Positions 4,824-50,188 of a stretch of 64,000 bases of DNA are shown one piece after another (within the stretch, counting starts at the first letter, position 1; the number at the start of each line of letters is the position of its first letter). This stretch comes from a virus. A program made the translations under genes and the position numbers. The stretch covers positions 4,322-68,321 of the IMG/VR virus record IMGVR_UViG_3300045988_138690, one strand, 5' to 3'. The notes under the pieces are model-generated. The model did not search any database. It was not told the DNA's origin and was given only the letters and a program-made list of their open reading frames with translations.

Positions 4824-5279
4824 TTAATTGCATTCTGTTATCAGTATGGGAGAATTTTCATAGTTCACATTCCCGTATAACTCGCTTTCTATTTCTTTGC
4901 CTTTCTTTGGCTGGTAGTCCGTTCCTTGGACGTAGAAATTACCGTCAAATGGATATGCGTTAATATGTTTATGCGGTATGTCAGTTGCGCACATTCCAGC
5001 CCAATAAGGGTATCTAAATAGTTTACCGTCTTTGTCCCTTGCGATATAGAATTTTGCCAGATCTTTCTTATTATCGAAAAATACGGTTTTCTCGTTGATA
5101 GGCTCGTATTTGTCATTTATAGCGGATAAAGTATAAATCATTCCGCTAACCTTTACCCCGTTCAAATTGCAGCCTTTAATAAGTCTTTCCGTCTCTTTAC
5201 TTGCTGCTTCCATCGTTGTGAAAATGCAAGTATATAAGTTTTGACCTTTGCCCAAATAGGCGCGTACTTCGTAAATCAT
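4824..5279 (-). CDS. Hypothetical protein (151 aa)
   Basis: ORF in the same-strand gene string. Confidence 0.55.
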   Translation of the reverse strand: MIYEVRAYLGKGQNLYTCIFTTMEAASKETERLIKGCNLNGVKVSGMIYTLSAINDKYEPINEKTVFFDNKKDLAKFYIARDKDGKLFRYPYWAGMCATDIPHKHINAYPFDGNFYVQGTDYQPKKGKEIESELYGNVNYENSPILITECN

Positions 5280-5355
5280 TGTTTTGTTTTTTAGTTAGTA
5301 ATAGTTCCCGGCGGCGGTGTCGCTCCGCTTGTTGTCCTCCACGCCGGGATAATTA

Positions 5356-5544
5356 TTAAGCCTTGAATATAACAAGGTATTCCCCACCTCTTTTGCCTAT
5401 GTGTGTATGTTCGTAACGCCCTTTTTTGGCATTGTAATAAAATTCTCCGGTAACGTTATATTCCACGCCGTTAACCTCGTAAACCATACAACTATGATTA
5501 TTATTCATTCCTATCGCTTTTATTGCCTTCATATCTTTATTCAT
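5356..5544 (-). CDS. Hypothetical protein (62 aa)
   Basis: ORF in the same-strand gene string. Confidence 0.45.
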   Translation of the reverse strand: MNKDMKAIKAIGMNNNHSCMVYEVNGVEYNVTGEFYYNAKKGRYEHTHIGKRGGEYLVIFKA

Positions 5545-5635
5545 TTTCTTCGTTTACAAATTCCTTGATTTTCTCTATATCGGTGCAGCTGATGAACAAC
5601 ACGGAACCGAATAACAGTAACATAACGCCGAACAT
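5537..5635 (-). CDS. Tiny lipoprotein-like peptide (32 aa)
   Basis: MFGVMLLLFGSVLFISC... is a signal peptide plus Cys. The stop overlaps the next gene's start. Very short. Confidence 0.25.
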   Translation of the reverse strand: MFGVMLLLFGSVLFISCTDIEKIKEFVNEENE

Positions 5636-5648
5636 ATTATAAGCTGTT

Positions 5649-5984
5649 TTATCCGTTATTAACTGATTTGTACAATTCACGCGCAAATCGTTTAATCATT
5701 CTTTTGCGCTGAGTATAATTGTAACTATAATATAGTTTTTCCCATCGTTCGCACACTTTGCGCGCTTTTTCGTTGCTCGTTCCGAATGGAGCGTAACCGG
5801 TGCAGATAGCTATATTATTATACGGTTCGGGTAATTCGTATATATCAGCCGCCCAACCTTCTAAACGTTCGGTATGCCCTATCTTTGTAAGGTAGTTTAC
5901 TATACTCTGTATTTCGCAATAACCTAATGATATTACATTTTCTTTTCCGTAAATGCGATATATTTCTTTTCTTGTTGTCTTCAT
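5649..5984 (-). CDS. Hypothetical protein (111 aa)
   Basis: ORF in the same-strand gene string. Confidence 0.55.
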   Translation of the reverse strand: MKTTRKEIYRIYGKENVISLGYCEIQSIVNYLTKIGHTERLEGWAADIYELPEPYNNIAICTGYAPFGTSNEKARKVCERWEKLYYSYNYTQRKRMIKRFARELYKSVNNG

Positions 5985-37009: not shown

Positions 37010-37399
37010 ATGGAAAAGATCAGATCATTATCGGACAAACGCCTTATCGTGGAATGCACGGTTAACGGCAGGCAAGGCAATTTCCTTGTTGACACGGGTG
37101 CGTCGGTAGGCTTGATAGCCGAAGACAGGGTAAGGAAGTTCGGGTTGCTTGAAGGCAGGCGTTATCCCGGTACGCTCATCGGTGCCGGAGGTGAAATAAG
37201 TGGCGTGCGTTATTGCAACACGTTTGCCAACCTGAAAGGAAAGGACATCCCCCAGTTCCTTATTGCCGACATCTCAGCGGTGAGGGAAAGCATAAGGAGG
37301 GAGACGGGAGTCGAGATACTTGGCATAATATCATTGCCGCAGATGAAGATTGCAGGAATGCAAGTCGACGCGAACGATAACCTTATAATAATTGAGTGA
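37010..37399 (+). CDS. Retropepsin-like (clan AA) aspartic protease
   Basis: FLVDTGASVGLI carries the D-T-G active-site motif. At 129 aa it is the size of a single-domain enzyme that would work as a dimer. Confidence 0.7.
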   Translation: MEKIRSLSDKRLIVECTVNGRQGNFLVDTGASVGLIAEDRVRKFGLLEGRRYPGTLIGAGGEISGVRYCNTFANLKGKDIPQFLIADISAVRESIRRETGVEILGIISLPQMKIAGMQVDANDNLIIIE

Positions 37400-39699: not shown

Positions 39700-40167
39700 A
39701 TGAAGAGTAACATTATTACCCAAAGTATACCGGGCGGGTTCTCGGTAATAGCGAGCAGCTTTATTGTACAGTCATTGGAGCACATGATACCGTGGCTGAT
39801 AGTCTCATTTTCGGTTATTGTATGTGATTTGGCATTCGGAGTGAGAAAAAGTTTATTGATGAATGAGGAAGTACGTTTCTCCGGGGCTATACGCCGTACT
39901 ATGGGTAAGATGGTGACATACTTCGCATTCGTATGCATGGTTGTGATGATAAACATTGCTTCGGGCGACAAATGGAACATTGATATATATTCATGCCTGT
40001 TGATATGCTTTATTGAGTTTTGCTCCATAATAAGCAACATATTAAAGCCTAAGGGATATGATTTCGACATATTGAAGGCTTTAGGCTTATTCGGTAAAAA
40101 AGTTTTTAATGTTGACAAGGAAGATATAAGTGATATAATAACTAAAGATAAGGAGGACAAGAAATAA
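39700..40167 (+). CDS. Holin
   Basis: 155 aa with 3-4 predicted TM helices. VCDLAFGVRKS... resembles the phage holin (LL-H/TcdE-like) family. Confidence 0.65.
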   Translation: MKSNIITQSIPGGFSVIASSFIVQSLEHMIPWLIVSFSVIVCDLAFGVRKSLLMNEEVRFSGAIRRTMGKMVTYFAFVCMVVMINIASGDKWNIDIYSCLLICFIEFCSIISNILKPKGYDFDILKALGLFGKKVFNVDKEDISDIITKDKEDKK

Positions 40168-40276: not shown

Positions 40277-41032
40277 ATGAGAAAGATACGGATAAAAAAT
40301 GACATAAATGTCACCCTTTCCATAAAACGTGACGGTTCAATCGAAGACCTTACCGGAAAGGATTTGGCTATTGTCATGCAGGTCGGATACTTAAAGGCTG
40401 CCATCGAGGATTTTACCGTCGATGGGAACAAGGTAGGCTTTCTTTTCCCGGCATTGCAGCAGAAGCATACCGGAGTGTATTCCATCACCATACAGGTAAG
40501 GGATGGCGATGCCGTGAACACAGTGGACAAGTGTGACGCATTCGAGCTTGTGTCGTGCAGTTGCAATGTAGGCGGTACGGATGAGCCTAATATCGAAACC
40601 GTATCATTGGAATATTCTTTAGACCTTAAGACCGATACGGGCGGTTCTTCTTCGGGAGGCGGGGGAACAGGTGACTACAGAGACCTTGCCAATAAGCCTA
40701 AAATCAACGGCATCACCCTTGACGGGAACAATACCCTTGGAGAACTCGGCATACAACCGGAAGGCGAATATCTCACAAAGCAGGATATTCCGGATTTGAA
40801 GGGTAAAGACGGGAAGTCCGCTTATCAGATTTGGATTGATGCGGGAAATTCCGGTACGGAAGAGGATTTCCTTGTATCGTTGAAGGGTGCTGACGGGCAT
40901 ACCCCGGTAAAAGGTACGGACTACTTTACCTCTGATGACGTGTCACAAATTGTCAATGATGTGACAGCGGCCATATCCGGTCAGATTGATGGGATAAACG
41001 CCATTGTAGGTACGGAAGGAGGTGAAGCATGA
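40277..41032 (+). CDS. Tail-fibre-like protein
   Basis: Ig-like N-terminus, Gly-rich linker, and the GKDGKSAYQIWIDAGNSGTEEDFLVSLKGADG motif common in phage fibre proteins. Confidence 0.55.
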   Translation: MRKIRIKNDINVTLSIKRDGSIEDLTGKDLAIVMQVGYLKAAIEDFTVDGNKVGFLFPALQQKHTGVYSITIQVRDGDAVNTVDKCDAFELVSCSCNVGGTDEPNIETVSLEYSLDLKTDTGGSSSGGGGTGDYRDLANKPKINGITLDGNNTLGELGIQPEGEYLTKQDIPDLKGKDGKSAYQIWIDAGNSGTEEDFLVSLKGADGHTPVKGTDYFTSDDVSQIVNDVTAAISGQIDGINAIVGTEGGEA

Positions 41033-42156
41033 GCACGCTTGGCGAACTGAAATCAAACATATTATCGGTGATATCCAAGATGAAGGAAAACCTTGTTTCC
41101 AAAGGGGTACAGGTCAGCGATGCCGATACGTTGCATACATTGGCTGATAAGGTCAATGATATACAGGGGCAACCCGCCAACCCCAACATTTATACTGTAG
41201 ACTTGTCGGTATACAATTATACGGAGGAGGAGCTTGCCGAAGCGAAGGCGATACTTGACTACAACATTGTAGGAATATGGCAATCCGAGGAAGCGCAGAA
41301 GATACTTGGAATGCCGGAGTCTTCATACGGATTTTCTTCCATAAGTGACATGATATACAATAACGGTTGCGTGCGGCCAATACTTGTCCCAAGAATTACG
41401 CTTAGGGTTGGGGCGGTAAATCTGCAAATACCTACGGGTATCGCTTTAAGTACTGCCATATACAGGGGAGCGATGAACTATGAGGGATTGGGTACCGACG
41501 ACAAGCGGGCACGTAATTTCTCAGCGGCATGCAGGAGCAATTATGGTATCACAAGGTTGCCGGGAGGAAACTGGAAGGAGACATGCGGGATTGCGGACAT
41601 GATGTTTGAAAACTGCACAAGCCTTATCGATGTAGACCTTGAACTGCCGAATTGCACTTCTTGTACGAGCATTATGGGTAGTTGCTCCGAACTTAAGAAG
41701 GCACGCCTTGTAATTCCGAAGGTAGAAAGCAGCAGACAGTTTTTCAGGAGCTGTACCTCTTTGGAAGATGCATATATTGACATGCCTTTGAATGATAGGT
41801 TCGACTACAGCCTTGAAAGGTGTACGGGACTTAAGAAACTTACCATAATATTCGGGGCAAACATAGGAAGCTACAACAATTGCTTTAGCTGGGAATTTCC
41901 TGGCAACTACACTTTGCTGAAGAATATATGCATGCATCCTTATGCCACTGTTCTCAACCTGTCAACCATATCAAAGTGGGGTACGGATACTCCTGAAAAC
42001 AGGCAATCACTGGTTGATACCCTGATAACGTATTCTTATGACAGGGCATCCGCAGGTTACAGCGCTGCTGCCGTATCCCTCCATGCTGATGTAAAGGCTT
42101 TATTGACAGAAGAAGAACTGACGCAAATCACCGACAAAGGTTACACAATAGCATAA
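41029..42156 (+). CDS. BspA-type leucine-rich-repeat protein
   Basis: Repeats of the form F.nCtsL..v.lp (FENCTSLIDVDLELPNCTSCTSIMGSCSELKKARLVIP...FFRSCTSLEDAYIDMP). Confidence 0.6.
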   Translation: MSTLGELKSNILSVISKMKENLVSKGVQVSDADTLHTLADKVNDIQGQPANPNIYTVDLSVYNYTEEELAEAKAILDYNIVGIWQSEEAQKILGMPESSYGFSSISDMIYNNGCVRPILVPRITLRVGAVNLQIPTGIALSTAIYRGAMNYEGLGTDDKRARNFSAACRSNYGITRLPGGNWKETCGIADMMFENCTSLIDVDLELPNCTSCTSIMGSCSELKKARLVIPKVESSRQFFRSCTSLEDAYIDMPLNDRFDYSLERCTGLKKLTIIFGANIGSYNNCFSWEFPGNYTLLKNICMHPYATVLNLSTISKWGTDTPENRQSLVDTLITYSYDRASAGYSAAAVSLHADVKALLTEEELTQITDKGYTIA

Positions 42157-42160
42157 TTAT

Positions 42161-42361
42161 ATGATAACGCTTAAATCAAAAACCGGGTATGTGTTTACCC
42201 AATCGGCTGAAATCCCCCTTGAACAGAGGGTGTATGCCAAAGAATTGTACTTGGCGGTAAATGATACTCCTGGCAACTGGAAGGAGATTACCGATGAAGA
42301 AGCTGCATCCATGCAGGAAGAGTTGAACAAAATAACCAAGGAGGAAGGAAATGAATATTAA
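42161..42361 (+). CDS. Hypothetical protein (66 aa)
   Basis: ORF overlapping the endolysin start. Confidence 0.45.
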   Translation: MITLKSKTGYVFTQSAEIPLEQRVYAKELYLAVNDTPGNWKEITDEEAASMQEELNKITKEEGNEY

Positions 42362-42791
42362 GGACTATTTCGACATTCAGGAACTTGTATGCCGTCATGT
42401 GTACGATAAGTTCGGGGAAAGCGCTTGGCAGTTCTTTGACAGCCGCCTGCTTGAAACGTTGCTTGTTATCCGTGAGAAGCTTGGCAAGCCTATCCTTGTG
42501 AACAATTGGCAGGTTGGCGGCAACCTCACACAAAGAGGTTTTAGATGTAATGTATGCCAGCTTGTCGCTGAAAAGACAAGGCTTGAAAAAGTGTACGTAT
42601 CGGCACACATGCAAGGCACGGGTATAGACTTCGATGTAAAGGGCATGACGGCTCTTGAAGCCCGCAACTGGATTAAGGCAAACCAGATACTCCTTCCTTA
42701 TCCAATAAGGCTGGAACAGGATGTTACGTGGGTGCATCTTGACATGCGAAATGACGGCACAAGGGGAAAGGTAGTGTACTTCAAAGGGTAA
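42351..42791 (+). CDS. Endolysin, peptidase M15 family
   Basis: SAHMQGTGIDFD (H-x6-D) and WVHLD give the zinc ligands typical of M15 peptidoglycan peptidases. Confidence 0.75.
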   Translation: MNIKDYFDIQELVCRHVYDKFGESAWQFFDSRLLETLLVIREKLGKPILVNNWQVGGNLTQRGFRCNVCQLVAEKTRLEKVYVSAHMQGTGIDFDVKGMTALEARNWIKANQILLPYPIRLEQDVTWVHLDMRNDGTRGKVVYFKG

Positions 42792-42937
42792 TATTGATTT
42801 TAATTTCGTTCTTTGACATGTTGGGATTACCGTTAATCGTTTTTGCAAATGTGAATAACACACGTGTGGCATAATTTATATGTTAAATATATTGTTTTCT
42901 TTCTTATAAAAACTGATATTTGCGATAATTAAACCTC

Positions 42938-43801
42938 ATGAGACATATAGCTATGAATATAAAATTTGAAGGTCAAACGCATCAAATTGATGCAAACACC
43001 CTTATATCTTCATTGGTTCATTATCAGACAGTAATCAATGAAGCGAACCGGATTTACGGAAATGGGACAAGAAATATTACCTTAAAAGTAAATGCGATTA
43101 ATAAAGGATCATTTGTTGTAGATGTTTCTATCGAAGAAGGTCTTAAGGGATTATTCTCAAATGATACTATAAACTATATTGCGGGGCTTGTAACCATAAT
43201 AGGAGGAGTGTATGGTGCTTACTCTCACTTGAAAGGGAAGCCCGCAAAAAACAAAGAGGATATTAATAGTATCTCAATAAAAACCGGAAAGAATAGTAAT
43301 ATTGAAATCAATCAAAATATTGTAAACGTGTATAACCAGCCAGTCGTGCGTGAAGCTATATCTAAAACAATTCAAATGGCAGACGAAGACCCATGCGTTG
43401 ACGGTGTTAGTATAGATAATGGCGAGGGGTTTAAAACAGAGTTCAAGAAAGAAGACTTTAAAGAACTTATATATAATGACTTTGATAAAGAAGAAGATAT
43501 TCCAAACGAAAAGATAGAGGAGGTTGAAGCTCTTCTTACTATAATTGCTTTAAATTTTGAATCCGGAAGTAAATGGCAGTTTATTTATAACGGCTTTAAA
43601 ATACCGATGATAGTAAAAGATGATGCTTTGATGAAAAAAATAGATGAAGGTGAAAGGTTCGGAAAGGGAGATGCAATAAAAGTAAGAATGAGAATACTTA
43701 AGAGGTATAACAATCAATATAAAACCTACGAAAACAAATCTTATAAAATCGTAGAGTTTTATGAACATATAATAGCACCTAAACAATCCGATATATTCTA
43801 A
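42938..43801 (+). CDS. Orphan protein with a central hydrophobic helix (287 aa)
   Basis: Stand-alone ORF with its own terminator. Visibly AT-rich and K/N/I-rich. No motif recognised. Confidence 0.6.
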   Translation: MRHIAMNIKFEGQTHQIDANTLISSLVHYQTVINEANRIYGNGTRNITLKVNAINKGSFVVDVSIEEGLKGLFSNDTINYIAGLVTIIGGVYGAYSHLKGKPAKNKEDINSISIKTGKNSNIEINQNIVNVYNQPVVREAISKTIQMADEDPCVDGVSIDNGEGFKTEFKKEDFKELIYNDFDKEEDIPNEKIEEVEALLTIIALNFESGSKWQFIYNGFKIPMIVKDDALMKKIDEGERFGKGDAIKVRMRILKRYNNQYKTYENKSYKIVEFYEHIIAPKQSDIF

Positions 43802-43813
43802 GATTAAATATAG

Positions 43814-43850
43814 AAGGCGGTAATTCCAACAAGGTTTCACCGCCTTTTTT
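43814..43850 (+). terminator. Intrinsic terminator
   Basis: AAGGCGGT/ACCGCCTT stem plus a T-run. Confidence 0.75.
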
Positions 43851-43896
43851 GTGTCCGGGCGGTATCCAAGTTCGGACACCCTTTATTGTTGGATAT

Positions 43897-44391
43897 ATGA
43901 AATGTAATATTGGTGAATTTCGTAGGCTTCTTCTTTGGGCTGCAATAGGCATATTGGCAATGCTGTTATCATCTATGCTCTCTTCGTGCCGAACGAGGAC
44001 GGTCTATGTGCCCGTTGAAACCAAAGTCCTTGACAGTATCATCCTGCATGATACGACATTCCAAGAGAAGTTGGTACCTTATAAGGATAGCGTATCCATT
44101 GCTGATACTGCTTCATTTTTATGCAACCCATACGCATACAGCTATGCCGGTTACAGCAATGGCATGTTGCATCATTCACTTGGCATATACCCGTTTGCCA
44201 CAGTAAGGGTAAATGTCCCGTATTTCATTGAAAAGATAAGAAGGATTGAAGTGCCGAAGCCTTATCCGGTGGAAAGGGAATTGTCATGGTGGAATAAATT
44301 TAAAGTCAGATATGGTAATGTCAGCCTGTTTGCCAATTTGGTTTTCATAGCCTTTTTGGTGTACAAAATAATAAAGAAATTAAAGATGTAG
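43897..44391 (+). CDS. Lipoprotein with a C-terminal TM helix (unimolecular-spanin-like)
   Basis: Signal peptide with the lipobox-like LSSC, and a C-terminal VSLFANLVFIAFLVYKII. Start taken at MKCNIGEF. Confidence 0.45.
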   Translation: MKCNIGEFRRLLLWAAIGILAMLLSSMLSSCRTRTVYVPVETKVLDSIILHDTTFQEKLVPYKDSVSIADTASFLCNPYAYSYAGYSNGMLHHSLGIYPFATVRVNVPYFIEKIRRIEVPKPYPVERELSWWNKFKVRYGNVSLFANLVFIAFLVYKIIKKLKM

Positions 44392-44603
44392 AAGTCAGCT
44401 TGTAGTTGGCGCTCTTTTTGGGGCTTAGAGTGGAAAGAAAGCCCCCAACGTTCAAATTAATATTGCCACATAAAAATTTGAAAAAGCATAAGATACCGCA
44501 CGTTGGAGGCTTAATATCTTCAACACGGTATCTTGTGCTTTGTTCATATGGATCAAATATTTTATGTGGCAGGGCAAAGGTAAGCATAAAAATCATAAAA
44601 ACT

Positions 44604-44897
44604 ATGTGTAAGTCAGAAATCTTTGCCGAAACAATCAATCTCGTCTCCCGTGAGACTGAAATTCCTGTTAACCAAATACTTTCTTCAAAGAAGGATACGG
44701 AAACGGTTGATGCCCGCTATCTCCTTGTTTCCCTTCTTTCCGACAGGGGTATGTATCCGTCACAGATAGCCTCTCACATCAATAAGACCAAACGTGCGGT
44801 GAACTACATGATTACCAATTTCCGTATGCGTATGGAAAGTGGGAAAATGTTGAGAATATATTGGGAAAACATTAGGAAATCGTTGGGAAGCAACTGA
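44604..44897 (+). CDS. DnaA C-terminal-like HTH protein
   Basis: ILSSKKDTETVDARYLLVSLLSDRGMYPSQIASHINKTKRAVNYMI resembles the DnaA domain IV pattern. Confidence 0.45.
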   Translation: MCKSEIFAETINLVSRETEIPVNQILSSKKDTETVDARYLLVSLLSDRGMYPSQIASHINKTKRAVNYMITNFRMRMESGKMLRIYWENIRKSLGSN

Positions 44898-44920
44898 TTT
44901 TTTGATAGTTATCGTATATA

Positions 44921-44946
44921 TACTTTTGTAAACGGTCATATGACCG
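44921..44946 (+). promoter_or_regulatory. -7 box TACTTTTG plus a perfect 14-bp palindrome CGGTCATATGACCG
   Basis: Box at 44921-44928 and palindrome at 44933-44946, covering the expected transcription start 19 nt before the ATG at 44965. Confidence 0.5.
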
Positions 44947-44964
44947 GAATAAAAAGTATATATT

Positions 44965-45927
44965 ATGAGCGAAACAAAAACGTATGTGTTTCCTGAAAGT
45001 GGAAACAATGGCGGTGGTGGCATGATGGCGATGCTTGCTCCACTGTTGCAGCAGAAGGGCATAGATCCTAATCTGCTTGTTGCCATGAACGGCCGTAACA
45101 ATAACGGCTTCGGTGGAGAGGGTTCATGGTTTATCTGGGTGATTTTCTTGTTCTTCCTCATGGGATGGGGTAACAACGGATGGGGAAATGGCGGTTTCGG
45201 TGGTGGCAATGGTGCAGCCGGCATACCCAATTTGATTAACAATGACGCAGGAAGGGAATTGTTAATGAGCGCTATCCAAGGTAACGGACAAGCCATAAAC
45301 AACCTGGCTACAAACCTTAACTGTTCAATCGGTCAAGTCCAACAGGCTATCAATGGCGTAATGTCACAAATCCAACAGGTAGGTAACCAGGTAGGACAAA
45401 GTTCAATGCAGATAATAAACGCTATCCAATCCGGCAACTGTCAGATTGCACAACAAATTGCGTCTTGTTGCTGCGAGAACCGCCTTGCGATTTGCCAACA
45501 GACCAACACGCTTCAAAATGCCATCAACGGTGTGGCTACCGGACAGGAGAGGGGATTTGCATCCGTGGCTTATGAGACACAGCGCCAGACTTGCGACCTT
45601 CAAAACTCCATTAAGGACAGTACACAGCAAATTCTTGCCGGACAACGTGCTGCTGAGATGCGTGAGATGCAGAACAAGATCGACAAGCTTCGTGAGGAGA
45701 ACAGCAATTACAAGACATCTGCCATGACTTCTCAGATTGTAGGTCAGGCAACAGCCCCACTTGGAGCAGCTTTGAGCGATTTAAGCTCTCGTCTTGCCAA
45801 GATCGAGTGTGCCCAACCTCCCACATTCCCGATGCCGTATTGTCCTGCAAGTGGGAATTACGTGCCGGTGAACTATTCTGTTCCTGTTAATTTCGGTGTA
45901 TCTACATTGGGAACTTGCGGTTGCTAA
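44965..45927 (+). CDS. G/N/Q/C-rich membrane protein of unknown function (320 aa)
   Basis: Gly-Asn-Trp-rich N-terminus flanking a TM helix (WFIWVIFLFFLMGW), a long Q/N-rich helical region with CCC, and a Cys-rich C-terminus ...GTCGC. Confidence 0.65.
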   Translation: MSETKTYVFPESGNNGGGGMMAMLAPLLQQKGIDPNLLVAMNGRNNNGFGGEGSWFIWVIFLFFLMGWGNNGWGNGGFGGGNGAAGIPNLINNDAGRELLMSAIQGNGQAINNLATNLNCSIGQVQQAINGVMSQIQQVGNQVGQSSMQIINAIQSGNCQIAQQIASCCCENRLAICQQTNTLQNAINGVATGQERGFASVAYETQRQTCDLQNSIKDSTQQILAGQRAAEMREMQNKIDKLREENSNYKTSAMTSQIVGQATAPLGAALSDLSSRLAKIECAQPPTFPMPYCPASGNYVPVNYSVPVNFGVSTLGTCGC

Positions 45928-45941
45928 GAAAGGAGGTAATT

Positions 45942-46448
45942 ATGTTATATCCTAACTTAATGTATCCTTATTGGCTTCCAAGCCCTTTTCTGATGAACCT
46001 CTCCGCAAGGGGGATTAGACGGATTGACATTAACGGTATCTATGAACTTTCGACGAATGCCGTCCAGTTGACAGACGCAAGCGTAGATTATGGCATTAAT
46101 CCTTCCTGCTACAATGCGTTGCCATGTGAAAGCATAATTCTTTTAAAAGTTCATGCCGATGTACCGGCTGGTGGTGAAGCATTACCTGTATACGTAATAA
46201 CCCCTAACATGGGTCAGACTACACTGGCTACTGCCGGGGTTACTTCCGGCACATCGAAAGTTCCTGTTGTGGATAGCAATAACAATCCGGTCACCGGTAC
46301 TGATGTCACAGGTACTACGGAACGCCTTGCTTATTTGAATAAGCGCACAGGTGTTATACGTTTTCTGGAATTTACCGCTTCAACACCTACTGCCGCCAGT
46401 AATGACGCTCCGTCGGTAGCAAGCGTAAATGTCACAAAGTCAAAGTAA
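45942..46448 (+). CDS. Hypothetical protein (168 aa)
   Basis: AAGGAGG lies 5 nt upstream of the ATG. Same operon. Confidence 0.6.
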   Translation: MLYPNLMYPYWLPSPFLMNLSARGIRRIDINGIYELSTNAVQLTDASVDYGINPSCYNALPCESIILLKVHADVPAGGEALPVYVITPNMGQTTLATAGVTSGTSKVPVVDSNNNPVTGTDVTGTTERLAYLNKRTGVIRFLEFTASTPTAASNDAPSVASVNVTKSK

Positions 46449-46494
46449 AAACAATGGGCGGGAGAAATCCCGCTCCTTAAAGAGTTAATTAATT

Positions 46495-47028
46495 ATGCCT
46501 TTTCAGAATTTAAGAGTAAACAGCGAGTTCTTTGTCCTTCATAAGGACGGCACTCCTTATATTGAAGTAGGTTCCGTTGTCGGGGTTTCCAATCCTGTAC
46601 AGGAGTTTATGCAGCAGCCAGTCCCTTATGGGCAACCTCCAAGGATGGTAGTTGACGTAACAATCAAGGTAGGGGAACAAACGGTTACTTTCCAGAAGAT
46701 ACCTGCAATGTCTGACATTGCCGATGCGAACTTTCCCGGAGGTGGTAACATGGTCATATCAGGCTCAAGGGAGTCCATGAATGCGGAAGTTGCCGCCATG
46801 CGTAACCGTTCCTCTGAAATATTGGGTAAAGTAGATTACCACCGTTCAGTGATGGAGGCATGTGACAACATGCTCCAGATCCTTAATCCGGAATTGGCTG
46901 AACGCCAGCGTCAGGATGCTGAGAATAAAGCCCTAAGGAAGGAGCTTAGTGAACTGAAGGCGATGATGGCTGATTTCTTCAAATCTTCTGATAAGGCATC
47001 TGGTAATAACAATTCTAAAAAACAATAG
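46495..47028 (+). CDS. Hypothetical protein with a C-terminal coiled coil (177 aa)
   Basis: ORF in the same operon. Confidence 0.6.
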   Translation: MPFQNLRVNSEFFVLHKDGTPYIEVGSVVGVSNPVQEFMQQPVPYGQPPRMVVDVTIKVGEQTVTFQKIPAMSDIADANFPGGGNMVISGSRESMNAEVAAMRNRSSEILGKVDYHRSVMEACDNMLQILNPELAERQRQDAENKALRKELSELKAMMADFFKSSDKASGNNNSKKQ

Positions 47029-47029
47029 T

Positions 47030-47317
47030 ATGATGATGATTGAAATTTCCGAAAGCAAGGTCGAGAAAATGTCCGACTATGCGGAAAAGATGCTTCGCTA
47101 CGGCGGCAAGCTCATGCAGTGCATAGAGGAGCTTTCCGAAGGCGAGGGTATGGGCGAACGCCGGGATGATGACCGTTATTATGACGACGACCGTTATTAT
47201 GACGAGGAAAACATGGGCGAACGCGGTGGCTACGGTGGCGGCTCAGGCCGTGGAGGTAGTGGTATGGGACAGAGACGTGGAGTCCGTGGAACCGGGCGTT
47301 ATTCCCGTTACCGTTAA
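47030..47317 (+). CDS. Bipartite acidic / RGG-rich protein (95 aa)
   Basis: DDDRYYDDDRYYDEE followed by GERGGYGGGSGRGGSGMGQRRGVRGTGRYSRYR. Confidence 0.55.
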   Translation: MMMIEISESKVEKMSDYAEKMLRYGGKLMQCIEELSEGEGMGERRDDDRYYDDDRYYDEENMGERGGYGGGSGRGGSGMGQRRGVRGTGRYSRYR

Positions 47318-47364
47318 GTTTAACCGGGGAGGGCGCAAGCCCTCCCTGTAATCATTAAAAAATT

Positions 47365-47790
47365 ATGAGATACAGGGAACCTTTAGATATAAGAGATAAA
47401 AGACCTGAAGAAATGGAGGCATATTTGAGCAATTTCGGCTGGCACTTTAATAAAAAGATGTGCGACTTTGCCGTTTCTTTAATGAAAAGAATAAATCCGG
47501 CCACAGGTAAAAAGGAACGTATTGAACCTGTTTCAAAGGAAAAGGCAGAAGAACTTCTTACAAAATATGGAGTAAAGCTGGATAATAATTCACTTTATGA
47601 TTTCGTGTACGTAATCAATATGGGTAAAGCCGACTTTTTCAAATCCTCTATTCCTGATGAACAGCATCTTGCCATGTATGTCAAGGATGTGATTGATGAC
47701 CCTGACGCTCCAGACGGAACGACAATGCGTCGTTGGTATGCAACTATGATTGCGTCCGGTGAACCTATAGAATGGGACGAAATGGTATAA
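47365..47790 (+). CDS. Hypothetical protein (141 aa)
   Basis: ORF in the same operon. Confidence 0.6.
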   Translation: MRYREPLDIRDKRPEEMEAYLSNFGWHFNKKMCDFAVSLMKRINPATGKKERIEPVSKEKAEELLTKYGVKLDNNSLYDFVYVINMGKADFFKSSIPDEQHLAMYVKDVIDDPDAPDGTTMRRWYATMIASGEPIEWDEMV

Positions 47791-47793
47791 GGT

Positions 47794-48228
47794 ATGATAC
47801 GCCAACAGTTTACTCTTGAAAGGTATGACTGGAACGTCTCCGTATATTATGCCGTGGATGCCTATTATGTCAATGAAATAATAGACCGTATGTATTCTAT
47901 TGGATGTGACGGGGAAATGCTCCGTACAGCCTATGAGAATATGAGTTCGGGTAAAATGAATACCGGAGTCACATATTCCAACTTCCGGGACAGGGAAACG
48001 GTGATGGTTATAGCCATTACTTCCTCTTCAAAGGAGTTTGAGAAATCTTGGCGGCATGAGTGCGGGCATCTGGCTACCCACATATGCCAAGCGCTTGACA
48101 TAACCCCGTATGGAGAGGAAATCCAATATATCGGGGATGATATAGTGGAAAAAACGTGGAAGTGCGCTCACCCGTTGCTGTGTGAGTGTGACTGCTGCAA
48201 AAATAAAGTTAAACAATTAATAGATTAA
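47794..48228 (+). CDS. Small HExxH-motif protein (144 aa)
   Basis: WRHECGHLATH contains HExxH. The C-terminus is Cys-rich (CAHPLLCECDCC). Confidence 0.55.
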   Translation: MIRQQFTLERYDWNVSVYYAVDAYYVNEIIDRMYSIGCDGEMLRTAYENMSSGKMNTGVTYSNFRDRETVMVIAITSSSKEFEKSWRHECGHLATHICQALDITPYGEEIQYIGDDIVEKTWKCAHPLLCECDCCKNKVKQLID

Positions 48229-48232
48229 AGTT

Positions 48233-48499
48233 ATGTACCAAAATTCAAAAATTGAAGCAAGATGCGAGGCGGTCAGAATGGCTGCATGTGTAAAAGACGT
48301 TACGAGTGATAACTTACTCGAAATGGCTAAGAAGATAGAAAATTATATCGTGGGAGACATTGAGCTTCCGGATATTTATGACCCGAACGCCAATTTTAAG
48401 GAATTGGTAGAAAAAATATCTAATAGAGTTGTTGATGGAAATGAAAAAAGAACTCCTGGAGTTGAGCCTAATTTGATAAATACACTTGCAAATGCGTAG
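48233..48499 (+). CDS. Hypothetical protein (88 aa)
   Basis: ORF in the same operon. Confidence 0.5.
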   Translation: MYQNSKIEARCEAVRMAACVKDVTSDNLLEMAKKIENYIVGDIELPDIYDPNANFKELVEKISNRVVDGNEKRTPGVEPNLINTLANA

Positions 48500-48656
48500 T
48501 AAACAGATCAGAAAGGCATTGAAGAGCGACACCCCCATCAATAGCATGTACGCTCTTATCCCGGAGAGCAGGCGTGATGCTTTCAAACGTTTTGCCTCTT
48601 ACTTTGGTTTTACAGAAAACAATATTAAATCCATTTTATCAAATGAGAAACGATAG
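48492..48656 (+). CDS. Hypothetical small protein (54 aa)
   Basis: The ATG overlaps the previous stop. An imperfect hairpin follows at 48676-48714. Below the track cutoff. Confidence 0.3.
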   Translation: MRSKQIRKALKSDTPINSMYALIPESRRDAFKRFASYFGFTENNIKSILSNEKR

Positions 48657-48675
48657 GCTTGACATATTGATTGAA

Positions 48676-48714
48676 CAGACGGAAGACATCCCACATTGGA
48701 TGTTCTGCCGTCTG
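48676..48714. terminator. Imperfect hairpin between convergent transcription units
   Basis: CAGACGG...CCGTCTG outer stem and GACATCC/GGATGT inner stem. No clear T-run. Confidence 0.35.
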
Positions 48715-48768: not shown

Positions 48769-48951
48769 TTATACCGCTTGCTGTTTTGGCGAGGGTTGTC
48801 TCTTTGTTGTTGTAACTGTCTTTCCCCATATCATCGCATTATACAACGAAGCGGCATATAGTTTAACTTCTTCCTTGCTATCGAGGAATTCTACTTTTAA
48901 CGCAGCTCTCATAGCTTCCGTGTAAAGGTTCTTGTCTATCTTATCTTCCAT
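48769..48951 (-). CDS. Hypothetical protein (60 aa)
   Basis: Last ORF of the minus-strand early string. Confidence 0.4.
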   Translation of the reverse strand: MEDKIDKNLYTEAMRAALKVEFLDSKEEVKLYAASLYNAMIWGKTVTTTKRQPSPKQQAV

Positions 48952-49515: not shown

Positions 49516-49685
49516 ACGTCTCCCTCATTGCCTTCAAAGTCGAGATAAACCGTATCTTTAGGGCTTGGATTGTTGAAACTGGAAAGCAACCCTACTACCT
49601 GCATCGGTATTGAAAGTCGCTCTCCTTGTGGTGACGGGAGTTTTATTTTCACCCAGTCACCGATTCTTAAAGATGTTATTTTCAT
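49467..49685 (-). CDS. Hypothetical protein (72 aa)
   Basis: ORF in the early string. Confidence 0.45.
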   Translation of the reverse strand: MKITSLRIGDWVKIKLPSPQGERLSIPMQVVGLLSSFNNPSPKDTVYLDFEGNEGDVWEEEVQNLVKVEVKS

Positions 49686-50188
49686 TGATTTAATATCTTA
49701 ATTGCTCGTTCGACATCATTTTCTGACAATCCTAAATAGGTATCAGTCTTGATAAAATGTTCTGCTTGTTCAAGAAGCATATCGCTGTCATCGTCAAGTA
49801 TCACGTAATTGAAATCAATTCCAATTTCTTTATAGTTCCAGTTTTTACCGTTGTCAGAGTGAATATGGGTATCAATCCATTGCTTTATCTCAACTCCGCG
49901 AGGGATACCGAGATGAACACCTTGCATAACGTAGGCATACGCTTTTATAGTTACTCCAATAATCCTGTCAGCGTATGGAAATGGGAATGGTACTAATGGC
50001 CTTATAGTTGTCAATTCTCCTTTTGTATCTTCTACCGTATTTTTCCTCCACGATGAAGATATGATAATTTTAGCATCTGTCGCATCTATAATCTTCCCAA
50101 GTAAATCACACGCATCCTTATCAAGTGCATAATGAGACTTCTGCGTGGAAATAACTCCGTCTATATCAAGAAATATAATTTTCATCAT
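49682..50188 (-). CDS. HAD-superfamily phosphatase-like protein
   Basis: KIIFLDIDGVIS (DxDG motif I), IISSSWR (motif II), and ILDDDSD. Confidence 0.6.
   Translation of the reverse strand: MMKIIFLDIDGVISTQKSHYALDKDACDLLGKIIDATDAKIIISSSWRKNTVEDTKGELTTIRPLVPFPFPYADRIIGVTIKAYAYVMQGVHLGIPRGVEIKQWIDTHIHSDNGKNWNYKEIGIDFNYVILDDDSDMLLEQAEHFIKTDTYLGLSENDVERAIKILNQ

What the first reader, a model, noticed from the sequence alone, without database searches (positions are those of the whole stretch)
44921..48714. Self-contained eight-gene operon with no recognisable function, downstream of the lysis genes
Eight same-strand ORFs run from 44965 to 48656, with gaps between -8 and 47 nt. They are 44965-45927, 45942-46448, 46495-47028, 47030-47317, 47365-47790, 47794-48228, 48233-48499 and 48492-48656.

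They sit behind their own TACTTTTG -7 box (44921-44928). A perfect 14-bp palindrome CGGTCATATGACCG (44933-44946) covers the expected transcription start. The operon ends at a hairpin (48676-48714). A DnaA-domain-IV-like HTH gene (44604-44897) lies immediately upstream and could be the operator-binding regulator.

The products are compositionally odd:
- a G/N/W-rich membrane protein with a Q/N-rich helical body and Cys clusters;
- a beta-rich 168-aa protein;
- a coiled-coil protein;
- an acidic-then-RGG protein;
- a 144-aa HExxH protein with a Cys-rich tail.

The head, tail, lysis, replication and lysogeny modules are all accounted for elsewhere in the window. This unit therefore looks like an independent, regulated system. 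Candidate roles are an envelope or superinfection function, a secreted product, or an auxiliary particle component.
Basis: partly seen in the sequence, partly recalled or inferred. Interest (0 to 1): 0.75.

Follow-up and report, generated by a model that had tools for sequence, protein, structure and literature searches.

The report
Conserved Bacteroidales-phage late gene cassette
The eight ORFs are a real operon whose six-gene core, with its own promoter, recurs in fixed order next to the lysis genes of thousands of gut Bacteroidales phages (crAss-like phages included), yet none of its proteins resembles anything of known function.

Summary

The evolutionary unit is a six-gene core, P1-P6. 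P1 is a single-pass membrane coiled-coil protein. P2 is a swappable small beta-rich protein. P3 has a beta domain plus a coiled coil. P4 is an acidic mini-protein with an Arg-rich tail. P5 is DUF7841, with a fold that has no PDB match. P6 is a minimal HExxH zincin. P7, P8 and an upstream DnaA-domain-IV-type HTH gene are optional.

The order never changes in temperate Bacteroides prophages or in three crAss-like families. The module lies beside or inside the lysis cluster (holin, endolysin, a u-spanin-like lipoprotein). 39 of 72 non-redundant P1 upstream regions carry a Bacteroides-type promoter box.

In TAG-recoded crAss-like phages, P1 and P3 contain in-frame TAG codons, which marks them as late genes. 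P1's C-terminal tail co-varies with P2.

No search linked the module to any known system: profile, structure and defence-system libraries all failed.

Best guess (about 0.35): a late, membrane-anchored complex acting in the envelope/lysis phase. Rivals are a virion-associated fibre or cargo module and a moron-type exclusion system. Function is unproven.

The parts
44394..44410 (+). Terminator-like hairpin followed by a T-run, directly after the upstream u-spanin-like gene; marks the upstream boundary of the unit
   Evidence: z = -2.0
44604..44897 (+). Small DnaA-domain-IV-type HTH protein (97 aa); an optional upstream companion and candidate regulator
   Evidence: Pfam PF08299 E = 0.0026 for the window copy. 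15 of 19 diverse homologs match, best E = 8.5e-8. Present upstream of P1 in 30/56 IMG/VR loci and 16/48 genome loci.
44901..44904 (+). TTTG, a possible -33 element 16 nt upstream of the -7 box (not tested)
   Evidence: read from the sequence
44921..44928 (+). Bacteroides-type -7 promoter box TACTTTTG (TAnnTTTG), 44 nt before the P1 ATG
   Evidence: The box is present in 39/72 non-redundant P1 upstream regions, clustered at -44 to -70.
44933..44946 (+). Perfect 14-bp palindrome, which forms a 5-bp stem with a tetraloop in the leader. The structure is conserved in relatives; the sequence is not.
   Evidence: (z = -2.7)
44965..45927 (+). P1 (320 aa): N-terminal 'LLQQKGIDPNLL' motif, one W/F-rich hydrophobic helix flanked by G/N/W linkers, polar heptad repeats, invariant CCC, and a variable Cys-rich C-terminal tail
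   Evidence: phrog_16490 E = 1.8e-47. At least 7,895 clusters. Alignments A2/A6. TM analysis. Only marginal coronavirus HR1 hits.
45942..46448 (+). P2 (168 aa): variable small protein with no signal peptide. This is a swappable slot, because an unrelated type (P2b) occupies it in other phages.
   Evidence: phrog_31654 for relatives. Cys content co-varies with the P1 tail.
46495..47028 (+). P3 (177 aa): N-terminal beta-type domain plus a C-terminal coiled coil with a conserved LNPE motif
   Evidence: phrog_28898 E = 4e-47. A3/A7. Only coiled-coil-type PDB hits. Heavily TAG-recoded in crAss-like phages.
47030..47317 (+). P4 (95 aa): N-terminal helix, acidic D/E/R/Y middle, Arg/Gly-rich tail with the motif GERRG..GTGRYSRYR
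   Evidence: A P4-like ORF lies between P3 and P5 in 74/90 unique cases.
47365..47790 (+). P5 (141 aa): DUF7841, the most conserved member. Confident mostly helical model with no PDB fold match.
   Evidence: PF25223 E = 2.2e-32. AF2 pLDDT 87, pTM 0.82. PDB best E = 3.6. BFVD matches only DUF7841 proteins. Found upstream of P1 in Suoliviridae.
47794..48228 (+). P6 (144 aa): minimal zincin-like protein. H88, E89, H92 and Y112 are invariant; E108, C130 and C134 nearly so. Its start lies 3 nt after the P5 stop.
   Evidence: 593 representative clusters. A5. Only sub-threshold hits to M78/SprT/DUF6782/MPTase-PolyVal. No PDB sequence match.
48233..48499 (+). P7 (88 aa, acidic): lineage-specific add-on
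   Evidence: Found in Dulem virus 40. Absent from all 56 untruncated IMG/VR loci, seen in one truncated locus, and in 3/48 genome loci.
48492..48656 (+). P8 (54 aa, basic): optional add-on
   Evidence: Found in C3_41T2LP and Dulem virus 40. Present in about half of the IMG/VR loci and in 4/48 genome loci.
48676..48714 (.). Strong stem-loop between the convergent ends of P8 and the minus-strand gene 48769-48951. Probable bidirectional terminator, but it has no U-tract.
   Evidence: z = -3.2 / -3.6
43897..44391 (+). Context: u-spanin-like protein (lipobox LSSC, C-terminal TM helix) immediately upstream of the unit
   Evidence: The family recurs within 5 kb upstream of P1 in 18/48 genome loci.
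39700..40167 (+). Context: holin (three TM helices)
   Evidence: PF05105, 26.8 bits against a cut-off of 22.2; phrog_199

Best explanation
The operon is the window's copy of a hallmark accessory module of Bacteroidales phages. Its core is six genes, P1-P6, transcribed from their own host-type promoter through a structured leader. In some lineages a DnaA-domain-IV-type HTH gene sits in front and P7/P8 behind.

My preferred reading is that the module builds a late-infection complex anchored in the cytoplasmic membrane by P1, and that this complex acts during the terminal, envelope-directed phase of infection (control or completion of lysis and release). It would therefore be neither a defence island nor a core virion part.

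Proposed mechanism:
- P1 inserts through its single W/F-rich helix and oligomerises through polar heptad repeats and the invariant CCC.
- P1's variable C-terminal tail, which is either Cys/Gly-rich or aromatic, holds the swappable small protein P2.
- P3 (coiled coil), P4 (acidic body, Arg-rich tail) and P5 (new fold) assemble on this scaffold.
- P6, a minimal Zn-peptidase translationally coupled to P5, processes a partner or a host target.

Shown: gene content, fixed order, distribution, promoter, late translational gating in recoded phages, linkage to lysis genes, P1-P2 co-variation, and the absence of known homologs.

Inferred: membrane insertion and topology of P1, complex formation, catalytic activity of P6, and any role in lysis.
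For: 1. Linkage to lysis genes across unrelated lineages. The cassette follows the holin and L,D-carboxypeptidase in cr116_1. In cr1_1 it lies between the holin and the endolysin-like gene. In cr272_1 it lies directly upstream of endolysin and TerL. In Dulem 42 it is next to DUF5675 and the holin. In B. fragilis prophages and a B. thetaiotaomicron element it follows the holin and the amidase or GH108 lysin. The order holin, u-spanin-like, HTH, P1... recurs in species-representative genomes.

2. Late expression. P1 carries 1-2 in-frame TAG codons and P3 carries 2-7. In cr4_1 and cr52_1, TAG makes up 44% of P3's Gln codons, similar to the spanin-like gene (54%) and the endolysin (60%). Recoding marks late structural and lysis genes (bioRxiv 10.1101/2021.08.26.457843, section 8; PMC9523058).

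3. Only P1 has a hydrophobic helix. P2-P8 have no signal peptide or TM segment.

4. P1 tail and P2 co-vary (Spearman 0.71, n = 101), and this holds across non-homologous P2 types.

5. The most conserved part of P1 is its N-terminal motif plus TM helix. It is shared by podovirus-like crAss phages and by phages with long tape-measure genes. That fits a generic anchor such as a membrane better than a virion docking site.

6. Tight spacing and overlapping stops and starts indicate co-translation.
Against: - No homology to any lysis protein. The window and many relatives already have a holin, an endolysin and a u-spanin-like gene, so no lysis step is obviously missing.
- Tail-fibre genes also sit next to lysis genes in most tailed phages, so the neighbourhood is compatible with a fibre or virion module.
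- The cassette's own promoter, terminator and HTH, and its position at the prophage end, resemble a moron.
- P1 topology is unresolved and its AF2 model failed (pLDDT 43).
- P1 homologs occur alone, without P2-P6, in two putative Methanomassiliicoccales viruses.
- No expression or proteomic data exist for any phage that carries the module.
Confidence: 0.35

Rival explanations
1. Virion-associated accessory module. P1 would be a coiled-coil fibre or an ejected 'pilot'-type protein, with a variable distal tail carrying P2 as an exchangeable tip or adhesin. P3-P6 would be assembly chaperones or co-packaged cargo, for example an injected mini-zincin.
For: - Late gating by TAG recoding.
- GC content like the structural genes, not like the neighbours.
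- P2 is hypervariable and is replaced by unrelated types, and it co-varies with the P1 tail. This is the typical pattern of fibre plus tip.
- The module moves between very different phage types, as fibre modules do.
- Gly/Tyr/Cys-rich tails look like cross-linkable structural material.
- In vir215, P1 follows a tail protein, a reverse transcriptase and a tail-assembly-chaperone-like gene.
- P1's size and composition (G-rich N-terminus, hydrophobic helix, Q/N-rich helices) recall the phiX174 H pilot protein. This comparison is from memory and was not tested.
Against: - No match to any virion protein family, nor to solved virion chains. The phiCrAss001 virion chains are, to my knowledge, among the PDB entries searched.
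- The P1 N-terminus is conserved across phages with different virion architectures.
- A strongly hydrophobic helix would drive P1 into the host membrane.
- In temperate phages the unit lies after the lysis genes, behind a terminator and its own promoter.
- It is absent from phiCrAss001 and p-crAssphage.
Confidence: 0.25
2. One reading: a moron-type, independently regulated system, either superinfection exclusion or anti-phage defence. P1 would be the membrane-anchored effector or sensor, P2 a variable specificity subunit, P6 a protease and the HTH the regulator.
For: - Its own host-type promoter in 39/72 lineages.
- Flanking hairpins.
- An HTH gene upstream.
- A location at the prophage end, next to the integrase or host DNA.
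- Patchy, accessory distribution among crAss-like phages.
- A variable P2.
Against: - No significant PADLOC hit; only faint coiled-coil matches to ZorA/LmuB.
- The module is embedded in the late or lysis block of virulent crAss-like phages.
- P1 and P3 cannot be translated before the late code switch in recoded phages.
- Composition matches the late structural genes.
- Six to eight genes is large for an exclusion function.
Confidence: 0.15
3. P1 is itself a spanin-like fusogen linking inner and outer membranes. It would be a mirror image of a class I fusion protein: an N-terminal membrane anchor, an HR1-like coiled coil, and a C-terminal Gly/aromatic membrane-active tail.
For: - Lysis neighbourhood.
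- Profile hits exclusively to coronavirus HR1 (best E = 7e-4).
- Gly/aromatic '...FWG' tails.
- Conserved Cys, as in lambda Rz (from memory).
Against: - A separate u-spanin-like lipoprotein with a C-terminal TM helix is present beside the holin in the same phages.
- cr52_1 has a LysB-like gene as well.
- The P1 tail co-varies with P2, which has no signal peptide.
- The HR1 hits are marginal and compositional.
- P1 has no lipobox.
Confidence: 0.07
4. There is no joint function. The genes would be unrelated small late genes that stay syntenic only through shared ancestry and co-transfer.
For: No demonstrated interaction. Several members (P6, P7, P8, HTH) are dispensable in some lineages.
Against: The order is conserved at 25-55% protein identity across Steigviridae, Intestiviridae, Suoliviridae and non-crAss phages. 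P5 stays linked even when it is permuted to the other side of P1. P1 and P2 co-vary. Genes are translationally coupled.
Confidence: 0.08

Closest known systems
Phage lysis cassettes of Gram-negative hosts (holin, endolysin, spanin, plus accessory regulators such as antiholins)
   Same: Genomic position beside or inside the lysis cluster, late expression, and one single-pass membrane protein (P1) with a long helical domain and conserved Cys.
   Different: No homology to holins, antiholins, endolysins or spanins. Five soluble partners, including a zincin. Its own promoter. Holin, lysin and a u-spanin-like gene are already present next to it.
Class I viral fusion proteins (coronavirus S2 HR1), the source of the 'spike protein/glycoprotein' annotations on P1 homologs
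   Same: Polar Q/N/A/I-rich heptad repeats. These are the only PDB hits, for both the single sequence and the family profile (E = 0.004 and 7e-4).
   Different: The scores are marginal. The domain order is mirrored (anchor at the N-terminus). There is no fusion peptide or HR2 homology. This is a resemblance of coiled-coil style, not membership.
Tail-fibre plus tip/chaperone modules (T4 gp37/gp38, lambda Stf/Tfa type)
   Same: A long coiled-coil protein whose variable distal end co-varies with a small, exchangeable, hypervariable partner. The module moves between unrelated phages, lies near tail and lysis genes and is expressed late.
   Different: No sequence or profile similarity. P1 has a membrane-type hydrophobic helix, and its N-terminus is conserved across different virion types. 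No evidence of virion association.
Minimal zincins: ImmA/IrrE (Peptidase_M78), SprT-like, MPTase-PolyVal
   Same: P6 has invariant HExxH, a downstream conserved Glu and a Cys pair, and a size of about 140 aa. A few family members give weak hits to these Pfam families.
   Different: No member reaches a gathering threshold and the window protein hits none. The usual partner domains (an Xre repressor for ImmA, a polyvalent protein context for MPTase) are absent.
Prophage morons and defence hotspots at prophage ends
   Same: An autonomous promoter and terminator, a regulator gene, and a location next to the integrase or attachment site in temperate relatives.
   Different: Also embedded in the late block of virulent crAss-like phages. 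Late translational gating. No match to known defence families. Composition like the structural genes.

Membership tests
Spanin (i-/o-spanin pair or unimolecular spanin) | Gene located in the lysis cassette | tested here: met
   The cassette is adjacent to or inside holin/endolysin clusters in many lineages.
Spanin (i-/o-spanin pair or unimolecular spanin) | i-spanin: N-terminal TM helix with a periplasmic coiled coil. u-spanin: lipoprotein signal plus a C-terminal TM helix. | tested here: inconclusive
   P1 has one TM helix and long helices, but the charge distribution does not fix its topology. P1 has no lipobox.
Spanin (i-/o-spanin pair or unimolecular spanin) | It is the only outer-membrane-disruption candidate of the phage | tested here: not met
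   A separate u-spanin-like gene (lipobox plus C-terminal TM helix) lies beside the holin in the window (43897-44391), cr116_1, Dulem 40 and B. fragilis prophages, and in 18/48 genome loci.
Holin | Small membrane protein with 1-4 TM helices that matches a holin family | tested here: not met
   P1 has no holin hit in Pfam or PHROGs. The holin is elsewhere, at 39700-40167.
Class I viral fusion / spike protein | Significant homology to HR1/HR2, and the architecture fusion peptide - HR1 - HR2 - C-terminal TM | tested here: not met
   Best E = 0.004 (single sequence) and 7e-4 (profile), restricted to HR1. The anchor is N-terminal.
Zincin metallopeptidase (Peptidase_M78 / SprT-like / MPTase-PolyVal) | Invariant HExxH with a conserved downstream ligand | tested here: met
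   H88, E89 and H92 are invariant and E108 nearly so in 98 diverse sequences.
Zincin metallopeptidase (Peptidase_M78 / SprT-like / MPTase-PolyVal) | Score above the curated threshold of one of these Pfam families | tested here: not met
   The window P6 gives no hit. Among 98 members, 5 hit M78, 4 SprT-like, 3 DUF6782 and 1 MPTase-PolyVal, with a best E of 6.8e-5.
Zincin metallopeptidase (Peptidase_M78 / SprT-like / MPTase-PolyVal) | Zincin fold and peptidase activity | not tested
DUF7841 (PF25223) | Score above the gathering threshold | tested here: met
   P5 scores 112.1 bits against a cut-off of 25.2. Its structural neighbours in BFVD are DUF7841 proteins only.
DnaA domain IV HTH (PF08299) for the upstream gene | Match to Bac_DnaA_C | tested here: inconclusive
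   The window copy scores 18.2 bits, below the 31.5 cut-off. 15 of 19 diverse homologs match at E <= 0.01, best 8.5e-8.
Known anti-phage defence systems (PADLOC-DB) | Significant match of any component to a defence-system model | tested here: not met
   Only weak coiled-coil hits of P1 to LmuB and ZorA tails (E = 0.003-0.09). Nothing for P2-P8 or the HTH.
Virion structural / tail-fibre proteins | Homology to structural families or to solved virion proteins | tested here: not met
   The matching PHROG families are all 'unknown function'. No PDB sequence hits beyond coiled coils.
Virion structural / tail-fibre proteins | Presence in purified particles | not testable with these tools
   No proteomics exists for a phage that carries the module. 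The stool metaproteome tables were uninformative.
Moron (autonomous transcription unit in a prophage) | Own promoter and terminator | tested here: met
   Promoter box in 39/72 lineages. Hairpins at both ends in the window.
Moron (autonomous transcription unit in a prophage) | Expressed from the repressed prophage | not testable with these tools
   Needs RNA-seq of lysogens. TAG gating in crAss-like phages argues for late expression there.

The most novel reading that the evidence does not exclude
The P1-P6 module is a previously unrecognised multi-protein machine, specific to phages of Bacteroidales. It would be a membrane-anchored coiled-coil stalk with an exchangeable tip protein, a protein with a new fold and a minimal zincin. 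It would form a fourth functional component of the lysis/release programme, for example a sensor or timer that couples an intracellular or envelope cue to lysis. It is carried by a large fraction of gut phages, including crAss-like viruses.
Probability: 0.25. Interest if true: 0.8.

Novelty: categorically new. Interest (0 to 1): 0.62.

Why it matters
Phages of Bacteroidales, crAss-like viruses among them, are among the most abundant viruses in the human gut, and most of their genes have no known function.

This module is very common. P1 alone has at least 7,895 clusters at 90% identity. At least 590 IMG/VR contigs and 60 species-representative genomes carry it.

It keeps its gene order across virus families that share almost nothing else. 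It is expressed with the lysis and structural genes. Its proteins match no known fold or family.

Whatever it does (lysis control, release, an accessory adhesin, or exclusion), it is likely to affect how these phages kill or persist with their hosts.

The work also identifies tractable systems: the cultured phage C3_41T2LP and a 61.9-kb circular element in B. thetaiotaomicron BFG-119. It gives concrete hypotheses to test (the P1 tail-P2 pairing, the P5-P6 pair). It also shows that the 'spike protein/glycoprotein', 'outer capsid protein/viral fiber' and 'RNA polymerase sigma factor/ubiquitin-like' annotations in public crAss-like genomes rest on weak coiled-coil or unsupported similarities.

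Tried and rejected
- Pfam, PHROGs, NCBIfam and PADLOC on all nine proteins gave only unknown-function families and DUF7841.
- PDB sequence searches, single and profile, for P1, P2a, P3, P5 and P6 gave nothing beyond coiled-coil noise.
- The AF2 model of P1 failed (pLDDT 43), so no fold search was run on it.
- The AF2 model of P5 is good, but it has no PDB counterpart.
- A split ArdC-like reading of P5+P6 was considered. It found no support: P5 is not an ArdC-N fold by Foldseek, and P6 is not a Pfam MPTase member.
- P1 as an MCP-like signalling domain: an 'ERGFASVAYET' stretch resembles, from memory, the chemoreceptor hairpin tip. There is no Pfam MCPsignal hit and the segment is absent from half the family, so I rejected it.
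- P1 as the spanin was rejected as the main reading after the u-spanin-like family was found.
- Cassette families related to one another, or P2a related to P2b: hhalign says no.
- Archaeal host check with the divergent P1 in representative genomes gave no hits. The method needs exact words, so this is inconclusive.
- Non-Bacteroidota 'hosts' in the genome scan are MAG contigs, several of about 90-100 kb. They are probably mis-binned crAss-like genomes.
- Literature searches for DUF7841, C3_41T2LP and crAss lysis modules found no description of this block.
- Stool metaproteomics of recoded crAss-like phages could not be mapped to the cassette.

Full report
**1. Observation**

The eight ORFs are present exactly as described. 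The gaps are 14, 46, 1, 47, 3, 4 and -8 nt. Gene calls on identical metagenome contigs agree.

The motifs are also in place. TACTTTTG is at 44921-44928, the palindrome CGGTCATATGACCG is at 44933-44946, and the ATG is at 44965. The 48676-48714 stem-loop is strong (-23 kcal/mol, z about -3.2 to -3.6 on either strand). It has no U-tract and lies between convergent genes. A terminator-like hairpin at 44394-44410 closes the preceding gene.

Taken alone, the two 5' motifs are not beyond chance. The window holds 62 TAnnTTTG matches and four distinct perfect palindromes of at least 14 bp. My own arithmetic gives about 3.9 such palindromes expected in 64 kb of random sequence. Their significance comes from comparison with relatives (section 3).

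**2. The unit is real and very widespread**

Three products match phage-only families of unknown function: P1 phrog_16490, P3 phrog_28898 and P5 phrog_38431. P5 is also Pfam DUF7841.

tblastn of P1 finds 29-35 phage records. Most are uncultured crAss-like phages of Steigviridae, Intestiviridae and Suoliviridae. The rest include the cultured B. uniformis phage C3_41T2LP, Dulem viruses and csAssE-Sib. In all of them a series of genes of the same sizes follows P1. Window proteins P3, P5 and P6 are detected there in the same order. Dulem virus 40 has the HTH plus seven of the eight ORFs by tblastn, with a different type of P2 in the second slot.

Profile HMMs built from the cassette proteins were then run on three independent samples:
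- The three B. fragilis prophage loci, which were not used to build the profiles, gave HTH-P1-P2-P3-P4-P5-P6-P8.
- 56 untruncated IMG/VR loci all kept the same order. P1, P2a and P5 were in all 56, P3 in 55 and P6 in 54.
- 48 more divergent loci from species-representative genomes (P1 32-65% identical) had P1 in 48, P2a in 48, P3 in 47, P5 in 46 and P6 in 39.

A P4-like mini-ORF lies between P3 and P5 in 74 of 90 unique cases under strict criteria. It has an acidic body and an Arg-rich tail with the motif GERRG..GTGRY.RYR.

In Suoliviridae, P5 sits immediately upstream of P1 instead of downstream (PF25223, E about 1e-40). It is mislabelled there as 'RNA polymerase sigma factor/ubiquitin-like protein'.

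So the conserved core is P1-P6. P7 is rare, and P8 and the HTH occur in roughly a third to a half of lineages.

The P1 family has at least 7,895 clusters at 90% identity; the search hit its candidate cap. O6 has 593 clusters at 50% identity. O5 has 693 indexed hits.

All isolate genomes that carry the module on sizeable contigs are Bacteroidales: Alistipes, Parabacteroides, Paraprevotella, Leyella and Bacteroides. Hits in other phyla are MAG contigs, several of about 90-100 kb, and are probably mis-binned phage genomes.

**3. Regulation**

In 72 non-redundant P1 upstream regions, 39 contain TAnnTTTG. The boxes cluster 44-70 nt before the ATG, against a background of 0.076 per 130 nt. This includes crAss-like genomes.

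Leaders are enriched for stable stem-loops: 40% have z < -2, against 15% of random windows. The stems differ in sequence: CGGTC/GACCG in the window, an extended stem around CGGTTAATATTGACCG in B. fragilis relatives, CGGGGCG/UGCCCCG in Dulem 40, and GGCGCG/UGCGCC in cr272_1. cr272_1 has no HTH gene upstream. A structured 5' leader at the RNA level is therefore at least as plausible as an operator.

The upstream gene is a DnaA-domain-IV-type HTH at family level (15/19 homologs, best E = 8.5e-8). Other lineages carry an HTH_17 protein or a DUF7841 protein in that position.

**4. Timing**

cr272_1, cr4_1 and cr52_1 read TAG as a sense codon. P1 has 1-2 in-frame TAGs and P3 has 2-7. In cr4_1 and cr52_1, TAG makes up 44% of P3's Gln codons. 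That compares with 54% in the LysB-like gene and 60% in the endolysin. P2 and the holin have none, and P5 has none in those two phages and one in cr272_1.

Published work shows that recoded codons mark late structural and lysis genes. [quoted passage not shown] Full-length P1 and P3 are therefore late proteins in these phages.

In the window, the cassette's GC (0.44-0.49) matches the structural genes (0.45-0.48). Its neighbours are lower (0.33-0.41), as is the early region (0.35-0.39).

**5. Neighbourhood**

The module follows or is embedded in lysis clusters. This holds in cr116_1, cr1_1, cr272_1, cr4_1, cr52_1, Dulem 40 and 42, B. fragilis prophages and the B. thetaiotaomicron BFG-119 element.

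A conserved lipoprotein with a C-terminal TM helix sits beside the holin in the window (43897-44391) and in many relatives. This is the u-spanin architecture, and the family shares the motif C-(R/T)-T-T-x-Y-VPVE. It lies within 5 kb upstream of P1 in 18 of 48 genome loci. Outer-membrane disruption is thus probably already provided, which argues against P1 being the spanin.

**6. The proteins**

- **P1.** It is the only member with a hydrophobic helix. The charge distribution does not fix its topology. AF2 gave an all-helical but unconfident model (pLDDT 43). The only PDB similarities, for both the single sequence and the profile, are marginal matches to coronavirus HR1 (E = 0.004 and 7e-4). 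These explain the 'spike' annotations. I read them as a shared coiled-coil style and not as homology.
- **P1 and P2.** The Cys count in P1's last 35 residues correlates with the Cys count in P2 (Spearman 0.71, n = 101). '...FWG' tails go with short Cys-free P2a. '...CGC' tails go with long P2a or with the unrelated Cys-rich P2b. Shared ancestry inflates the statistic. The pattern nevertheless holds across non-homologous P2 types, which suggests a direct tail-P2 contact.
- **P3.** It has a conserved N-terminal domain and a coiled coil. Only coiled-coil-type PDB hits were found, with a faint PsaE-like signal at the N-terminus.
- **P5.** Its model is confident (pLDDT 87, pTM 0.82). It has no PDB counterpart (best E = 3.6), and in BFVD it matches only DUF7841 proteins.
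- **P6.** H88, E89, H92 and Y112 are invariant, and E108, C130 and C134 nearly so, in 98 diverse sequences. A few members give sub-threshold hits to M78/IrrE, SprT-like, DUF6782 and MPTase-PolyVal. It is a minimal zincin outside the curated families.
- **Defence models.** None match.

**7. Interpretation**

What the evidence establishes is a co-inherited, self-promoted, late-expressed six-gene module linked to the lysis genes. It has one membrane anchor and five soluble partners, and none has a known homolog.

I favour a membrane-anchored late complex acting in the envelope/lysis phase (0.35). The reasons are the repeated embedding in lysis clusters of unrelated phages and the lysis-like TAG gating of P3. 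A third reason is that the most conserved part of P1, its N-terminal motif plus TM helix, is shared by phages with different virion architectures.

A virion-associated fibre or cargo module (0.25) explains the variable P2, the tail co-variation, the structural-gene-like composition and the module's mobility. It does not explain the membrane helix or the conserved N-terminus.

A moron-type exclusion or defence system (0.15) fits the promoter, the HTH and the prophage-end position. It conflicts with the late gating and with the location inside the late block of virulent phages.

P1 as a spanin-like fusogen (0.07) and 'no joint function' (0.08) are less likely.

Two putative Methanomassiliicoccales viruses carry P1 alone, after the tail genes. 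These genes have Shine-Dalgarno sites, and Flg_new surface proteins lie next to them. P1 may therefore work on its own, but the host assignment could not be verified.

**8. Novelty**

The searchable literature does not describe this block. Public annotations call the genes hypothetical or give misleading names.

I rate the module as lying outside every known kind of system on present evidence. The caveat is that its function is unknown, so it could turn out to be a divergent form of a known functional class, such as a lysis accessory or a fibre module.

Noticed in passing
window 43897-44391 (also L002 3430-3810, L006 4368-4934, L018 9020-9415): A conserved family with the architecture of a unimolecular spanin: lipoprotein signal and lipobox Cys, motif C-(R/T)-T-T-x-Y-VPVE, and a C-terminal TM helix with a KK tail. 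It lies next to holins in Bacteroides prophages and crAss-like phages. It may be the unrecognised spanin of Bacteroidales phages.
   Followed up: partly
L161 = NZ_CP103284.1 (B. thetaiotaomicron BFG-119 'plasmid unnamed1', 61,862 bp, circular): A record deposited as a non-mobilizable plasmid is evidently a circular temperate phage genome. It has a BACON tail-fibre protein, a holin, a GH108 lysin and an integrase. It carries the cassette (P1 84% identical), with every cassette gene annotated as hypothetical. This is a tractable experimental system.
   Followed up: partly
L004 (cr272_1), L008 (cr4_1), L012 (cr52_1): TAG stop-codon recoding is visible in the cassette. P3 carries 7 TAG codons in 188 aa (44% of its Gln codons). 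It may therefore be the 'fourth preferentially recoded family of unknown function' reported for roughly 105-kb crAss-like phages.
   Followed up: partly
L010 (vir335) 4860-5783; L011 (vir215) 4878-5759: P1 homologs with all the family motifs occur alone in two viruses assigned to Methanomassiliicoccales. They are preceded by strong Shine-Dalgarno sequences and followed by Flg_new-repeat surface proteins. Host assignment was not verified.
   Followed up: partly
L008 5114-5740, L012 5348-5947, L009 4931-5674: Genes annotated 'RNA polymerase sigma factor/ubiquitin-like protein', or hypothetical, in Suoliviridae are DUF7841 proteins (E about 1e-40). The sigma-factor label looks unfounded.
   Followed up: yes
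window 37010-37399: A retropepsin-like aspartyl protease (PF13650, E = 5.8e-10) lies among the tail and late genes. This is unusual for a tailed phage.
   Followed up: no
window 41029-42156 and 40277-41032: A BspA-type leucine-rich-repeat protein and a tail-fibre-like protein lie downstream of the holin. Tail-fibre-type genes and lysis genes are therefore interleaved in this phage.
   Followed up: no
window 42600-44700: A low-GC stretch (0.33-0.38) lies between the late genes and the cassette. It contains a 287-aa phrog_3243 protein of unknown function and a minus-strand ORF (42288-42872). It could be a separate insertion.
   Followed up: no
L105, L109, L117, L151, L158 and similar loci (genome contigs): Contigs that carry the cassette are binned into MAGs labelled Methanobacteriaceae, Bacilli, Gastranaerophilaceae and similar. 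Several are about 90-100 kb long. They are probably crAss-like phage genomes mis-binned into unrelated MAGs.
   Followed up: no
window 45510-45610 (P1 residues about 179-208): The P1 segment 'QQTNTLQNAINGVATGQERGFASVAYETQRQ' resembles, from memory, the conserved hairpin tip of methyl-accepting chemotaxis proteins. There is no Pfam MCPsignal hit, and the segment is missing in about half of the family.
   Followed up: partly
window 49682-50188 (minus strand): A HAD_SAK_2 (PF18143) protein lies in the convergent early region just downstream of the cassette.
   Followed up: no
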